A DNA stretch of 64,000 bases from Octopus vulgaris (Eukaryota): contig OX597843.1 of assembly GCA_951406725.2 (NCBI GenBank), forward strand, positions 11,408,001 through 11,472,000, written 5' to 3'. Positions 9,627-50,373 of the stretch are shown one piece after another. Each line of letters starts with the position of its first letter. Positions within the stretch are counted from its first letter, which is position 1. Made by a program: the position numbers.

Positions 9627-12600
9627 CTGTGTTTGTCCCCCTAGCATCGCTTGACAACCGATGCTGGTGTGTTTACGTCCCCGTCACTTAGCGGTTCGGC
9701 AAAAAAGAGACCGATAGAATAAGTACTGGGCTTACAAAGAATAAGTCCCGGGGTTGAGTTGCTCGACTAAAGGCGGTGCTCCAGCATGGCCGCAGTCAAA
9801 TGACTGAAACAAGTAAAAAGAGAAAGAGAAAGAGTCCCCCAATGTTGTTCCTGTTTTATGTTCAGTCTGACGATAAAACACTTATGGCATTTTAAAATTA
9901 AACAGTCGCAGCATTGCCATTTCCTGGTTTTGAGATAATGTGAGATACAGTCATTTCTGCCTAAACAGAATTGTAAATACTGTGAAATTTTCAACAGTCC
10001 GTGTTTCTCTTTGCGAGAGTTCAACGTTCTGTTTATGATTCTCTGCTTCTTCCCACCTCACCTCATTCTCGGATTATGAAGAGAAACCTTTCCCTTTCAT
10101 CACCATCATCATTCAATGTCTGCCTTCCATACTGGTATGGGTTGGACAGTTTGACAGAAGCCAGCCAGGTAGAAGTCTACACCATGCTACTGTGTCTGTT
10201 TTGGCATGATTTTTACAGCTGGACCACCCTGTAGAGTGGACTCAGTGCTTTTTACATGGCACCAGAACAGGCGAGGTCAGTTTTAGCATGGTTTTTACAG
10301 CTGGATGCCCCTCTTAACACCGACCACCCTGTAGAGTGGACTCGGTGCTTTTACATGGCACCAGAACAGGCGAGGTCAGTTTTAGCATGGTTTTTACAGC
10401 TGGATGCCCCTCTTAACACCGACCACCCTGTAGAGTGGACTCAGTGCTTTTTACATGGCACCAGAACAGGCGAGGTCAGTTTTAGCATGGTTTTTACAGC
10501 TGGATGCCCCTCTTAACACCGACCACCCTGTAGAGTGGACTCAGTGCTTTTTACATGGCACCAGAACAGGCGAGGTCAGTTTTAGCATGGTTTTTACAGC
10601 TGGATGCCCCTCTTAACACCGACCACCCTGTAGAGTGGACTCGGTGCTTTTTACATGGCACCAGAACAGGCGAGGTCAGTTTTAGCATGGTTTTTACAGC
10701 TGGATGCCCCTCTTAACACCGACCACCCTGTAGAGTGGACTCAGTGCTTTTTACATGGCACCAGAACAGGCGAGGTCAGTTTTAGCATGGTTTTTACAGC
10801 TGGATGCCCCTCTTAACACCGACCACCCTGTAGAGTGGACTCGGTGCTTTTTACATGGCACCAGAATAGGCGAGGTCAGTTTTAACATGGTTTTTACAGC
10901 TGGATGCCCCTCTTAACACCGACCACCCTGTAGAGTGGACTCAGTGCTTTTTACATGGCACCAGAACAGGCGAGGTCAGTTTTAACATGGTTTTTACAGC
11001 TGGATGCCCCTCTTAACACCGACCACCCTGTAGAGTGGACTCAGTGCTTTTTACATGGCACCAGAACAGGCGAGGTCAGTTTTAACATGGTTTTTACAGC
11101 TGGATGCCCTTCCAAATGCCAACCACTTCATAGTGTGAACTGGATGCTTTTTTTTATGTGGCACTGACATGGTCACCAAGTGACTTAAAAGACAAGGAAT
11201 TTTGAGAGGGGAGGGGCCATTGGTGCGGGTCATCTTGAGTCATGATGAAAGATTATAGTGATTCAGCGGGACAGAACCAGGCGTCTTGCTATAGAGGTGG
11301 GGATCTTGTGTCAGATAATGATAGATTATAGTATGACTGAGAGGCAGAAGCGGGTGAATGAGTTGTGTTTGTATTTCTGTTGTCTCTTTTTTTTGGTTGT
11401 AGTCAAGATATTTACTCCGTCTTTTTCTTTTTTTTTTTTCAGCGATCGTGCCTGTTCCTCGGCATGACTATACTGCTCAGGCTGCCGCCGCCGCCGCCAC
11501 GGGGCCCCCACTTCTGGCTCAAACCAACATCCCCGCACCGTATTTCCCCTACTACCAAATCCCGCAGCCCACGCACACGCCGTACACTCAGGTAGGTATA
11601 CATTTATACGCGTATTTTCTTTTGTTTATGTATGCACGTACTTAATACTTAGGTTTTGGGTGATAAGGCCGAACACAAAAAAGGTTAAATTTCAGATGAG
11701 GAGGAAAGGACCAGAATATAAAATGCCATAATGTTGAGAGATAAAAACTCTCCAGTTTTAGGGGGGAAATAATTAAAAAAACCGACTTTAAAATGTAGTT
11801 ATTTATAGTTTCAGAAAGTTCATTTGTGAAATATTTTACTTTTTTCTTTGTCATTTAACTGCAGCCATGCTGGGGCACCACCTTGAAGGGTTTTAGTCAA
11901 ACAAATCCACCCCAGGGCTTTTTTTTTTTTCTTTTTCTTATATGCCTGGTACTTATTCTATCAGTCTCTTTTGCTGGACCATTAAGTTATAGGGACGTAA
12001 ACACACCAACACCAGTTGTCACGTGATGATGGGGGACAAACAAACATAAAGACAAATATATATATATATAAATAAAGCTGAAGTTGTCTGTGTGTGGCAG
12101 GTTTGGTAGCCTTCAACTAACACTATCTCCTCCAAGACTTTGCGGCGCAAGTTGACCAAAATTGAGAGTATGATAGAAGAAGGCTTGCTCTTTATTCTGT
12201 AGAAGAAAAAATTCAAATCGGACCATGTTAACACCAAAAATTATTTACACCAAAAAGGTGCTTTTTTTCTATGAAAATCCCTATTTTTTATGATTTTTTT
12301 TACTGCTGTGTCGCCATTTTTCGGTGTATTTCGACCAGAAAAATGTTCACTTAAAGAGAATAACAAGCTACATAATGCAAAATTTTTACTTTTCAAAAAT
12401 TCCAATTCTAAAGGGACGAAACAAACCCGAGCAACGCCGGGTGATACTGCTAGTATATATATCTCAGCCACATGCTGTGAGTAATTACTCAAAGTAGGCA
12501 GTCGGTGACATTTATGTAGTAAAACACACACAAAAATAAGCAAAACAGAGGTGTACGACTGAGTTGTAGGCAGATTTACTTCTGCCTTTATAACATGTAA

Positions 12601-47470: not shown

Positions 47471-50373
47471 GCATGTTTGTGTGTCTGTGTTTGTCCCCCT
47501 AACATTGCTTGACAACCGATGCTGGTGTGTTTATGTCCCCATTACTTAGCGTTTCGGCAAAAGAGACCGATAGAATAAGTACTGGGCTTACAAAAGAAGA
47601 AGTCCTGGGGTCGAGTTGCTCGATTAAAGGCGGTGCTCCAGCATGGCCGCAGTCAAATGACTGAAACAAGTAAAAGAGTATATATATATGATGGCTGCCC
47701 CCTCGATATCAAGTATGGCCATTGCACGAAGCTTAACTATTATTGGTGCTGTGATCAAACGTGACTTTTTAGTCCAGCCAAAGATCTACAATGTCTTGTA
47801 CAAAATTGGCAGCTAAAACCTTTACTGGTAATAGCCGGCTGTAGTTGTAACTGGGCTTCATGTACCTTTGCATGTCGTTTAAGTCCTCCTGCCGAATTAC
47901 ACTCTCTTCCACATGCCTGACAGGTATGATTAGTATGGTGGACGTTAAATGATGATGATGATCACATGAAATGCCTGTATTTATAAAGCTGGCATTATCA
48001 TTTAATGTTTGTCTTCCGTGCTGGTGTTGGTCAGATGGTTTCTCAGAATCCGACGAGCCAGGTGACTGTGCCAAGCTCCAGTGTATGCTCTGGCTTGGTT
48101 TCTCCAGCTTGATGCCCTTCCTAATGCCAACCACTTTACAGAGTGTACTGGGTCCTTTTTCCGTGGCACCAGCTGTAGGGAGGTTGCCAAATAAATTGCT
48201 GGTCAAGATTGCTCAACATTAGAGGTTTAATATTGGTAGAGGTGGTTTTAATGCTTCGTGTTGAGGGTTTGATGTATGATTGGAGAGAAACTGTTGCTAT
48301 AGAGATGCATGGCTACCCCCAGCTGGAAAGGGAGATGGTGAGGATATATCCTTAAGGTACAAAGTCTGCGGCGAGCTGGCAGAAACGTTAGCGCGCCGGG
48401 CAAAATGATTAGCTGAGTTTGACTTTGCTTTCATCCTTTCGGGGTCGATAAATTGAGTACCAGTTACACACTGGGGTCAATATAATCGACTTAATCCGTT
48501 TGTCTGTCTTTGTTTGTCCTTTCTGTGTTTAGCCCCTTGTGGGTAGTAAAGAAATAGGTACAAAGTCAATATAAAAGGGGGAAAGAGAGAATAGGGATAG
48601 TGGATCAGGAAGGGTTGGTAGTCTGCAAGAATGTGAGAAGTGACAGATGGTTAGAGATGGGGGTGGGGAGGTGCAGTTTCCTTTTAATGCCCACTTTTCT
48701 ATAGGTCAGCTAAAATTAGTTGAAGTAGATTTTCTATGGCTGGGTGCCCTTCCTGTCACTACCCCTCACCTGTTTCCAAACAAGGTAATATTTTGCCATG
48801 GAAAATTGGAAACGAATTAAGCTTGTTTACAATGATGCCGAGACAAAGGGTGAGGTGGGGATATACACACAACGGGCCTTTTGTTCCCAGCTATCAAATT
48901 ACACTTAAAACATTGGTCAACTCGTGGCTATCTTAGAAGTCAGTGTCCATGCAATAGAAGCACACAGCAAACCCTGCAATTCCAAAGCAAAATCAAAAAG
49001 GCCCAATTGTTATCCTTGTGCATTTAGAGGAGGATTAGCCTTTATCTTTCTCTCTTACACTGAGTTTATGAACTACAGGTAAATTAATGCTAATTATATA
49101 TTAATCATGTCTCCTTTCTTTTGTTTCATGAACCAAAGCACCTCATGCCCATGGCCCAGGGGACGAGGTTGATGACTCAAACAACAGTCCCAATCGTTCC
49201 GACTTCTCATCCTGGCAACATGGAACAGACTGGTAACCCTCAGCATTCAGCGCCGTTATATGGTAAGCTAATATTCAACTATTCTTTGGTTTTGTATTTA
49301 TTCTCTGTGTGTGTTCAGATATTTGTCTTCGTTCATTTTCATGTTGGATTCTCCCTGCTGATATGCAAGTTTGAAAACCTGTAAACAGCAAAGGCGCTTA
49401 CACAATACAAGAACTTTTCAAAAGATTTGTGTGCGTTTTATATAAGTGTGTGTACATACTTTAAAGTGGTTGCTGTTTGGGAGGGCATCCAGCTGTAAAA
49501 CTCATGCCAAAACTGGGGTTGCCTGTGCTGGTGCCACATAAGAAGCACTGTCCACTCTGCAGAGTGGATGGTCGTTAGGAAGGGCATCCAGTCATAAAAA
49601 AAATCATCCCCAGAACAGAAGTCTGGTGCCTTCCAACCACATTTTCAATTTCAGTCCCACGACATGGCACCTCGGGTAAGTGTCTTCTGCTATAGTACCG
49701 GGCCTGCTAAAGTTTTGGAGTGGTTGGAGATCACGCGGTCGTTAGCCTCAAATCGCCAGGCCTGGTCTCAGCGTTTGTGAGAGATGCAGCATTGAGGATG
49801 AATGAAGCCAGTTCAACCCACCCCGGGTGAATGCTGTAAGAAGAAGAAGAAGAAGAAGCCTGCTAAAGTCTTGTGTGCAACTTTAGATGGAAACTGAACG
49901 AAGCTCGTCATGTATGTTTGGGTCCCTTTGTCTCAACATCACATGATAGTCGTAAATGAGTGTCCCTGTCATACAAGCAGTGTTGTTCATTTCCAATAAT
50001 CTGCGCAAGCATGTCTGGTCAATGGAAATATTACCTGGCTTGGAAACAGGTGAGGGTTGGCAGCAGGTAAGATATCCAGCCATGGAAATGGCTCAGGAAT
50101 ACAAGGGCAGAGACAAGCTGTGGCCCAGGTGGGGTGGAGAGCAATCATCACTAGTTTTGTCTGGTTCTATACTCTCTTTTACACTTTACTCTTTCACTTG
50201 TTTCAGTCATTCGACTGCGGCCATGCTGGAGCACCGCCTTTTAATCGAGCAAATCGACCCCGGGACTTATTTTTTGTAAGCCCAGTACTTATTTTATCGG
50301 TCTCTTTTGCCGAGCCGCTAAGTGACGGGGACATAAAACACCAGCATCGGTTGACATAGGGGGACACACACAG

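What the first reader, a model, noticed from the sequence alone, without database searches (positions are those of the whole stretch)
11592..49138. Candidate array of cassette microexons in the 37.5-kb Ataxin-2 intron
Seen: this phase-0 intron is about 6-10 times longer than the next-largest introns of the gene. Between TE blocks there are non-repetitive U-rich islands, each containing a short AG...GT segment that is stop-free and a multiple of 3 in phase 0: 14819-14878, 19025-19045, 22716-22754, 25485-25520, 27341-27379, 31063-31083, 33169-33198, 34516-34560, 40103-40117 and 41063-41146. Known: neural microexons are typically frame-preserving with long U-rich upstream tracts, and the Ataxin-2 C-terminal disordered region drives RNP granule assembly (needed for long-term memory in Drosophila). 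Inference: a lineage-specific combinatorial splicing array that inserts short peptides into that region. Caveat: candidates were picked by eye in AT-rich DNA, so selection bias is substantial.
Basis: partly seen in the sequence, partly recalled or inferred. Interest (0 to 1): 0.85.

Follow-up and report, generated by a model that had tools for sequence, protein, structure and literature searches.

The report
One conserved Ataxin-2 microexon, no array
Of ten proposed mini-exons in a long octopus Ataxin-2 intron, one 21-base exon is real, optional and shared with cuttlefish-type cephalopods, while the other nine look like chance.

Summary
All ten AG...GT segments are at the stated coordinates, each a multiple of 3 and stop-free. 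As a set they are not above chance. The intron holds 1,672 such in-frame pairs on the + strand and 1,506 on the - strand, and the in-frame fraction is no higher than antisense.

One candidate is real. Window 31063-31083 (21 nt, LWMVKPD, GTAAGT donor, CU-rich tract) sits exactly between the two flanking exons in an NCBI Octopus sinensis protein (P0001). The same seven residues occur at the same junction in a transcript-derived decapodiform Ataxin-2 (P0004). Three other cephalopod proteins (P0002, P0003, P0005) have the direct junction. The insert is 7 of 7 identical, against 11 of 20 and 9 of 20 in the flanks.

It is therefore a conserved, alternatively included cassette microexon in the disordered tail after PAM2. 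It supplies the only tryptophan in about 400 His/Pro/Gln-rich residues. The other nine have no support in any of the 157 Ataxin-2-like proteins held. Tissue specificity and function are untested, because no cephalopod RNA-seq or genome collection was available.

The parts
11442..11591 (+). Upstream constitutive Ataxin-2 exon (150 nt, AIVPVP...PYTQ). It ends in phase 0 with donor GTAGGT.
   Evidence: 100% identical to P0001 and 98% to P0002.
30984..31049 (+). CU-rich region upstream of the microexon: a (TCTT)n run at 30984-31003 and tcttttctctttctctt at 31033-31049. The 100 nt upstream are 70% pyrimidine. There is no TGC within 98 nt of the 3' splice site.
31063..31083 (+). 21-nt cassette microexon encoding LWMVKPD, phase 0-0. 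The acceptor is ttttatAG and the donor is GTAAGT at 31084-31089.
   Evidence: sequence. (present in P0001 and P0004; absent from P0002, P0003 and P0005). (single copy in the window). (one of only 2 in-frame pairs under the strict signal filter).
31150..31280 (+). T/CU-rich tract downstream of the microexon. The 200 nt downstream are 71% pyrimidine.
   Evidence: Descriptive only; function is inferred.
31378..31464 (+). GCATG at 31378 and TGCATG at 31459, which are Rbfox-type motifs 295-376 nt downstream of the donor.
   Evidence: About what chance would give in this length, so a lead only.
49139..49262 (+). Downstream constitutive Ataxin-2 exon (124 nt, HLMPMAQG...PLY). The donor GTAAGC follows it.

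Best explanation
The 37.5-kb intron of this octopus Ataxin-2 gene is mostly transposon and satellite DNA, and it contains one genuine alternative cassette microexon at 31063-31083 (21 nt, LWMVKPD).

Shown: the exon has canonical, strong splice signals. It is included in some Ataxin-2 products and skipped in others, both in octopus and in a decapodiform. Its peptide is conserved better than its surroundings.

Inferred: the spliceosome defines the tiny exon through its consensus GTAAGT donor and CU-rich polypyrimidine tract, and inclusion is regulated by proteins that bind the CU-rich flanks. Inclusion adds the only Trp, one Lys and one Asp to a nearly uncharged His/Pro/Gln-rich disordered tail about 115 residues after the PAM2 motif. 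That would change the tail's interactions, whether self-association in RNP granules or a short binding motif.

The other nine segments are chance AG...GT pairs in T-rich intron DNA.
For: Gene identity: P0002 and P0004 carry SM-ATX, LsmAD and PAM2. P0002 maps to window exons at 92-100% identity, except the first short match at 83%.

Inclusion: P0001 (NCBI, Octopus sinensis, 100% identical to exon 11442-11591) reads ...PYTQ-LWMVKPD-HLMPM.... P0004 (984 aa, longest contig 3,424 nt, so transcript-like) reads ...PYPQ-LWMVKPD-HMMTM....

Skipping: P0002, P0003 and P0005 have the direct junction. P0003 is 100% identical to P0004 over the matched stretches, so both forms exist in one decapodiform lineage.

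Conservation: 7 of 7 in the insert, against 11 of 20 and 9 of 20 in the adjacent flanks.

Signals: donor score 4 of 4 and 85% pyrimidine upstream. With >=80% pyrimidine plus GTRAGT there are 9 pairs of 3-150 nt on the + strand and 0 on the - strand. Only 2 of the 9 are in frame and stop-free, and this exon is one of them.

Context: it supplies the only W, 1 of 4 K and 1 of 2 D in the 418-residue (P0001) and 406-residue (P0004) tails, which hold 41-43 His. AlphaFold gives mean pLDDT 48.1 and no secondary structure.

Other nine candidates: no shared 5-mers with any of the 157 proteins held, apart from Ser-rich low-complexity words and one QQGGR. There is no in-frame excess over antisense.
Against: No RNA-seq or cDNA from this species could be examined. 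Inclusion in octopus rests on one NCBI gene model, P0001. That model is truncated and named 'extensin', and its own evidence I could not see.

Only five cephalopod proteins cover the junction, so the absence of the other nine candidates is weak evidence against rare or tissue-restricted isoforms.

The count of in-frame pairs at mid stringency (69) exceeds dinucleotide shuffles (52.1 +/- 8.8; 3 of 100 shuffles reach it). However, the fraction in frame does not exceed antisense.

Nothing here shows tissue specificity or any effect on the protein. The mechanism is inference from composition and from analogy.
Confidence: 0.85

Rival explanations
1. One reading: the intron carries a lineage-specific array of about ten cassette microexons that are combined to diversify the Ataxin-2 tail.
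For: All 10 segments exist as described and lie in within-window unique, T-rich islands. One of them is real.
Against: Only 1 of 10 appears in any of the 5 cephalopod proteins covering the junction or in the 157 proteins held. The in-frame stop-free fraction is 0.157-0.179 on the + strand and 0.171-0.227 on the - strand. 8 of the 9 unsupported candidates have donor scores of 1-2 of 4, and 5 of the 9 have 70% pyrimidine or less upstream. 41063-41146 lies in a tandem repeat. The real exon is shared with decapodiforms, so it is not lineage-specific.
Confidence: 0.04
2. One or two of the other nine segments, or other unlisted ones, are additional octopus-specific exons with low inclusion.
For: Cephalopod coverage is thin: only 2 octopus-type proteins span the junction. 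40103-40117 has donor GTAAGG, and 19025-19045 has an 85% pyrimidine tract.
Against: No protein evidence. Each is matched in quality by dozens of chance pairs (69 on the + strand and 49 on the - strand at comparable thresholds).
Confidence: 0.12
3. The 21-nt insert is an annotation or assembly artefact and not a real exon.
For: P0001 is an odd model: 436 aa, named 'extensin', without the Lsm, LsmAD and PAM2 parts, and with an extra 13-residue insert near its end.
Against: The same 7 residues occur at the same junction in P0004, which comes from another source and another cephalopod order, with different flanking residues. The genomic segment has AG and GTAAGT borders and the right phase.
Confidence: 0.03
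4. The exon is real, but its inclusion is unregulated splicing noise with no function.
For: No tissue data and no functional data here. There is no UGC motif near the 3' splice site.
Against: 7 of 7 residues are kept between octopus and a decapodiform, while the flanks are 50-55% identical. Both lineages keep both isoforms.
Confidence: 0.1

Closest known systems
CPEB4 neuronal microexon 4 (24 nt)
   Same: A frame-preserving microexon inserted into the disordered region of an RNA-binding translational regulator that forms condensates. According to the abstract of PMC11711090, that microexon interacts with a cluster of histidines and prevents irreversible aggregation. The octopus Ataxin-2 tail holds 41-43 His in about 400 residues.
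   Different: A different gene and an unrelated peptide. Neuron specificity and any effect on condensation are untested for the Ataxin-2 exon. The analogy is inference.
Known mammalian ATXN2 alternative exons (10, 11, 12, 21, 24)
   Same: The same gene family, with alternative exons that avoid the Lsm, LsmAD and PAM2 motifs (PMC7650068, abstract and passages). Exon 21 is a short 54-bp exon in the C-terminal half.
   Different: None is described there as a microexon. The octopus exon is 21 nt and lies two exons after the PAM2 exon. Exon-by-exon homology to the mammalian gene was not tested; no human sequence was used.
SRRM3/4 (eMIC)-dependent neural microexons
   Same: Short length, a frame-preserving design, deep conservation and a UCUC-containing polypyrimidine tract. 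These features are listed in a passage of PMC8797185, and the UCUC motifs are at 31038 and 31044.
   Different: No UGC near the 3' splice site; the nearest TGC is 98 nt upstream. The AG-free zone is only about 34 nt (read). The donor is strong rather than weak. Regulator dependence is not testable here.
c-src N1 exon (18 nt), repressed by PTB and enhanced by downstream UGCAUG (recalled, not from a call)
   Same: A tiny exon with CU-rich tracts on both sides and a UGCAUG downstream.
   Different: There is a single UGCAUG, 376 nt downstream, which is about the chance expectation. No binding or tissue data.

Membership tests
Ataxin-2 gene | Encodes the SM-ATX/Lsm, LsmAD and PAM2 domains | tested here: met
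   P0002 (precomputed Pfam LsmAD and SM-ATX) matches window exons 5164-5286, 6469-6534, 7597-7791, 11442-11591, 49139-49261 and 50658-51098 at 91-100%, and 1752-1820 at 83%. P0004 has SM-ATX, LsmAD and PAM2. The Lsm and LsmAD exons themselves lie outside the window.
Alternative cassette microexon | Exon of 3-27 nt with AG and GT borders | tested here: met
   21 nt, with tatAG before it and GTAAGT after it.
Alternative cassette microexon | Present in spliced products | tested here: met
   LWMVKPD sits at the exact exon junction in P0001 and P0004. This is protein-level evidence only; no reads were seen.
Alternative cassette microexon | Skipped in other products of the same gene | tested here: met
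   Direct junction in P0002 (octopus-type), P0003 (100% identical to P0004 over the matched stretches) and P0005.
Alternative cassette microexon | Frame-preserving | tested here: met
   21 = 7 x 3, phase 0 on both sides, no stop.
Neural eMIC (SRRM3/4)-dependent microexon | Neuron-specific inclusion | not testable with these tools
   No cephalopod RNA-seq was available.
Neural eMIC (SRRM3/4)-dependent microexon | UGC motif close to the 3' splice site | tested here: not met
   The nearest TGC upstream is at 30963, 98 nt before the AG.
Neural eMIC (SRRM3/4)-dependent microexon | Long polypyrimidine tract with UCUC motifs | tested here: met
   TCTCT at 31038 and 31044; 85% pyrimidine in the 20 nt before the AG.
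Neural eMIC (SRRM3/4)-dependent microexon | Long AG exclusion zone | tested here: inconclusive
   The nearest upstream AG is at 31025-31026, which leaves about 34 nt free of AG (read). No reference distribution for cephalopods.
   1 of 10. Power is limited to the 5 cephalopod proteins covering the junction.
   Fractions are 0.157-0.179 (+), 0.171-0.227 (-) and 0.130-0.145 (shuffles).
   The only real exon is shared with a decapodiform.

The most novel reading that the evidence does not exclude
The 21-nt exon is a regulated, probably neuronal, switch kept since octopuses and cuttlefish or squid diverged. By adding the only tryptophan and a Lys/Asp pair to a His/Pro/Gln-rich Ataxin-2 tail, it tunes the assembly or reversibility of RNP granules. 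That would be a cephalopod counterpart, evolved independently, of the CPEB4 microexon that acts on a histidine cluster.
Probability: 0.2. Interest if true: 0.6.

Novelty: new member of a known kind. Interest (0 to 1): 0.38.

Why it matters
Ataxin-2's disordered C-terminal region mediates mRNP condensation in Drosophila (abstract of 10.1101/2020.07.02.184796, seen in the listing). Microexons in the disordered regions of granule proteins can decide between reversible condensates and aggregates (abstract of PMC11711090).

A deeply conserved, optional 7-residue insert in cephalopod Ataxin-2 gives a small, testable handle on how such tails are tuned in an independently evolved complex nervous system. 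None of my four searches that bear on it found it described: microexon + octopus, microexon + ataxin-2, ATXN2 + splice variants + exon 21, and the peptide itself.

The result also shows that by-eye lists of in-frame AG...GT segments in T-rich introns are mostly chance, although a strict signal filter singled out the real exon.

Tried and rejected
- **Rfam, whole window at gathering thresholds:** 0 matches, so no known intronic RNA gene explains the islands.
- **Pfam on five long intronic or nearby ORFs** (17361-17843 -, 57562-58005 -, 12241-12648 -, 25225-25749 +, 47769-48212 -): 0 families each.
- **Paralogous copies of the microexon in the window:** none at up to 3 mismatches in DNA or up to 2 substitutions in six-frame translation. 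An array made by exon duplication is therefore rejected.
- **The same insert outside cephalopods:** 0 of 21 non-cephalopod orthologues aligned have 5 or more extra residues or a Trp at the junction. Of the 157 proteins held, only P0001 and P0004 carry the motif at up to 2 substitutions at the junction. P0076 has LTMVKPS directly after PAM2, at another position. This is weak evidence, because each cluster is shown by a single representative isoform.
- **The listing of cluster members, to see isoforms inside clusters:** Isoforms X1 of the mollusc 'isoform X2' hits therefore stayed unseen.
- **A 'shorter' search for fragments spanning the junction:** found only P0001.
- **AlphaFold of P0001 with 25 aligned sequences:** mean pLDDT 48.1 and no secondary structure. 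This is compatible with disorder but gives no structural role for the insert.
- **Not possible here:** Supplementary tables of the 2026 preprint that includes Octopus bimaculoides exons were closed and might list this exon.
- **No joined spliced model was built or searched.** The exon 11442-11591 was searched on its own. Later searches used database proteins as returned.
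Full report
**What the window is.** Translating the exon before the intron (11442-11591, 150 nt) gives AIVPVP...PYTQ in an open frame. The exon after it (49139-49262) gives HLMPMAQG.... I searched the first exon alone, not a joined model. It found two proteins.
- P0001 is an NCBI Octopus sinensis protein named 'extensin' (436 aa, 100% identical).
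- P0002 is an unnamed 867-aa protein (98% identical) with precomputed Pfam LsmAD and SM-ATX domains and a PAM2-type motif.

Local tblastn places P0002 and P0001 on window exons at about 1752-1820, 5164-5286, 6469-6534, 7597-7791, 11442-11591, 49139-49261, 50658-51239, 54936-55046 and 61207-61269. Canonical splice borders are seen at most of them. The gene is Ataxin-2 and the intron is phase 0 and 37,547 nt long.

**The observation.** All 10 of 10 listed segments have AG before them and GT after them, a length divisible by 3 and no stop in phase 0. A self-comparison of the window shows that 59.4% of the intron has another copy within the 64 kb. All ten segments lie in parts with no other copy. 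Their islands are T-rich (0.36-0.44 against 0.322 overall). The repeated part includes large tandem arrays:
- 66 bp x 9.3 at 15191-15804
- 148 bp x 6 at 25889-26778
- 159 bp x 11 at 29089-30791
- 248 bp x 6 at 31485-32967
- 67 bp x 7.7 at 34956-35468
- 108 bp x 20.8 at 43080-45317

Candidate 41063-41146 itself overlaps a 27-nt tandem repeat at 41061-41131.

**Is the set more than chance? No.** Counting every AG...GT pair 9-90 nt apart gives the following.

| Filter | + strand, in frame and stop-free / all pairs | - strand | 100 dinucleotide shuffles (fraction) | Shuffles reaching the observed + count |
|---|---|---|---|---|
| None | 1,672 / 10,638 (0.157) | 1,506 / 8,794 (0.171) | 0.145 +/- 0.005 | 27 of 100 |
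| >=70% pyrimidine in 20 nt, >=2 of 4 donor matches to GTRAGT | 69 / 420 (0.164) | 49 / 241 (0.203) | 0.145 +/- 0.020 | 3 of 100 |
| >=80% pyrimidine, >=3 of 4 donor matches | 5 / 28 (0.179) | 5 / 22 (0.227) | 0.130 +/- 0.104 | 4 of 100 |

The + strand does have somewhat more pyrimidine-tract acceptors than shuffles, but the in-frame fraction never exceeds antisense.

Among the ten candidates, pyrimidine fractions are 0.70, 0.85, 0.65, 1.0, 0.70, 0.85, 0.90, 0.40, 0.60 and 0.75. Donor scores are 2, 2, 1, 2, 2, 4, 2, 2, 3 and 2. Only 31063-31083 combines a consensus donor with a strong tract.

**One candidate is real.**
- P0001 reads ...PTHTPYTQ LWMVKPD HLMPMAQG..., and LWMVKPD is exactly the translation of 31063-31083. 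P0002 reads ...PYTQHLMPMAQG..., the direct junction.
- A second search, with the PAM2-to-junction part of P0002, returned nine proteins. They include P0003 (NCBI, Acanthosepion pharaonis ATXN2_2L), P0004 and P0005 (source 'lgn', unnamed), and mollusc Ataxin-2-like proteins.
- In the alignments, P0004 reads ...PTPTPYPQ LWMVKPD HMMTMTPG.... P0003 and P0005 have the direct junction.
- P0003 is 100% identical to P0004 over the matched stretches, so both forms occur in one decapodiform lineage.
- P0004 is 984 aa on a longest contig of 3,424 nt. For a gene with introns this large, that means a spliced transcript.
- The insert is 7 of 7 identical between octopus and decapodiform, while the 20 residues on either side are 11 of 20 and 9 of 20 identical.

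Two independent sources, two cephalopod orders, the same junction and the same peptide: this is a real cassette microexon that is alternatively included and under constraint. That the two orders diverged a few hundred million years ago is recalled, not from a call.

**The other nine.** None shares a 5-residue word with any of the 157 Ataxin-2-like proteins held, apart from Ser-rich low-complexity words (33169 and 41063) and one QQGGR. A search for shorter fragments spanning the junction found only P0001. Only five cephalopod proteins cover the junction, so rare octopus-specific isoforms cannot be excluded. I give about 0.12 that at least one more is real and about 0.04 to a true combinatorial array. 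The microexon has no diverged copy in the window, so there is no sign of an array built by duplication.

**Anatomy of the real exon.**
- Upstream there is a (TCTT)n run at 30984-31003, then tcttttctctttctctt at 31033-31049, then acctgttttatAG. The 100 nt upstream are 70% pyrimidine.
- The exon is followed by GTAAGT.
- The 200 nt downstream are 71% pyrimidine, with long T/CU runs at about 31150-31280.
- GCATG occurs at 31378 and 31460, the latter as part of TGCATG at 31459.
- The island holding the exon (30814-31434) sits between the 159-bp and the 248-bp tandem arrays.
- With a strict filter (>=80% pyrimidine plus GTRAGT, exon 3-150 nt) the + strand has 9 pairs and the - strand 0. Only 2 of the 9 are in frame and stop-free: this exon and 19188-19205. 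The latter lies just past the end of the unique island 18858-19188, in DNA that has other copies in the window.

A passage of PMC8797185 lists the features of eMIC-dependent microexons. Compared with that list, the UCUC-rich tract is present. A UGC near the 3' splice site is absent, with the nearest TGC 98 nt upstream. The AG-free zone is about 34 nt and the donor is strong. I therefore do not file it as an eMIC-type exon. The CU-rich flanks on both sides suggest regulation by polypyrimidine-tract binding proteins. This is inference, and the comparison with the c-src N1 exon is recalled.

**What it does to the protein.**
- The exon lies about 115 residues after PAM2.
- In P0001 the 418 residues after the PAM2 position hold 74 Pro, 53 Gln, 43 His, 1 Trp, 4 Lys, 2 Asp and 1 Glu. 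The Trp, one Lys and one Asp come from the microexon.
- P0004 shows the same pattern, and the skipping forms P0002 and P0005 have no Trp at all.
- AlphaFold on P0001 with 25 aligned sequences gives mean pLDDT 48.1 and no secondary structure, which fits a disordered tail.

The most likely role, by inference only, is to change the tail's interactions. It could act as an aromatic or charged 'sticker' among His/Pro/Gln residues, or as a short binding motif. The closest described case is the 24-nt CPEB4 microexon, which interacts with a histidine cluster and prevents irreversible aggregation (abstract of PMC11711090).

**How far back does it go?**
- Of the 35 best proteins held, 26 have PAM2 and more than 150 residues after it, and these were aligned. 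2 of the 5 cephalopod proteins have the insert. 0 of the 21 others have 5 or more extra residues or a Trp at the junction.
- The residues around the junction are recognisably conserved (...Y-x-Q | Q/H-V/L-M...).
- Among all 157 proteins, 99 cover the region. Only P0001 and P0004 carry the motif at the junction. P0076 has LTMVKPS right after PAM2, at another position.

**Literature.**
- 'microexon' + 'octopus': 4 papers, none on Ataxin-2 by the listing. The main text of the 2026 preprint that includes Octopus bimaculoides has 0 mentions of ataxin or Atx2 (passages). Its supplements were closed and might list the exon.
- 'microexon' + 'ataxin-2': 22 papers, 15 listed. The one I opened uses the word only as an aligner option.
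- The peptide string: 0 papers.
- Known mammalian ATXN2 alternative exons are 10, 11, 12, 21 (54 bp) and 24, with PAM2 in exon 16 (PMC7650068, abstract and passages). Homology of the octopus junction to a particular mammalian junction was not tested, and no human sequence was used.

**Verdict.** There is one conserved, optional 21-nt Ataxin-2 microexon (confidence about 0.85-0.9 that it is a genuine alternative exon), not an array. It is a new member of a known kind. Interest is moderate.

Noticed in passing
window 58077-58115 (+): P0001 contains a further 13-residue insert (VASYSASNLCVFK), encoded by a 39-nt segment with an AG acceptor and a GTAGAT donor. The decapodiform proteins P0004 and P0005 lack it, and P0002 ends earlier. 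It could be a second small cassette exon, an octopus-specific exon or a model artefact.
   Followed up: partly
window 7059-7112 (+), and P0001 as a whole: The NCBI model P0001 starts with a short exon at 7059-7112 (83% match), lacks the Lsm, LsmAD and PAM2 parts, and is named 'extensin'. Yet the window has upstream Ataxin-2 exons matched by P0002 (1752-1820, 5164-5286, 6469-6534). Either the gene is split in that annotation or there is an internal start.
   Followed up: partly
window 31063-31071 (+): The microexon contains an internal GT (ATG|GTAAAA). This could serve as an alternative donor giving a 9-nt version (LWM). It was seen in the sequence only.
   Followed up: no
window 43080-45317, 31485-32967, 29089-30791, 25889-26778, 15191-15804, 34956-35468: The intron holds six sizeable tandem arrays with units of 108, 248, 159, 148, 66 and 67 bp and 6 to 21 copies. 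The real microexon lies in the 621-nt unique island between the 159-bp and the 248-bp arrays.
   Followed up: partly
window 7186-7550: A long CT/GA dinucleotide-type repeat reads as (LS)n or (ER)n in all frames. It lies directly upstream of exon 7597-7791.
   Followed up: no
window 19188-19205 (+): This is the only other in-frame, stop-free pair that passes the strict splice-signal filter (18 nt, donor GTGAGT). It lies just past the end of unique island 18858-19188, in DNA repeated within the window. It has no protein support.
   Followed up: partly
window 17361-17843 (-) and 57562-58005 (-): Two open frames of 160 and 147 residues lie on the opposite strand. Neither has a Pfam family at E <= 0.01. 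They are probably decayed mobile-element remnants, but this was not shown.
   Followed up: partly
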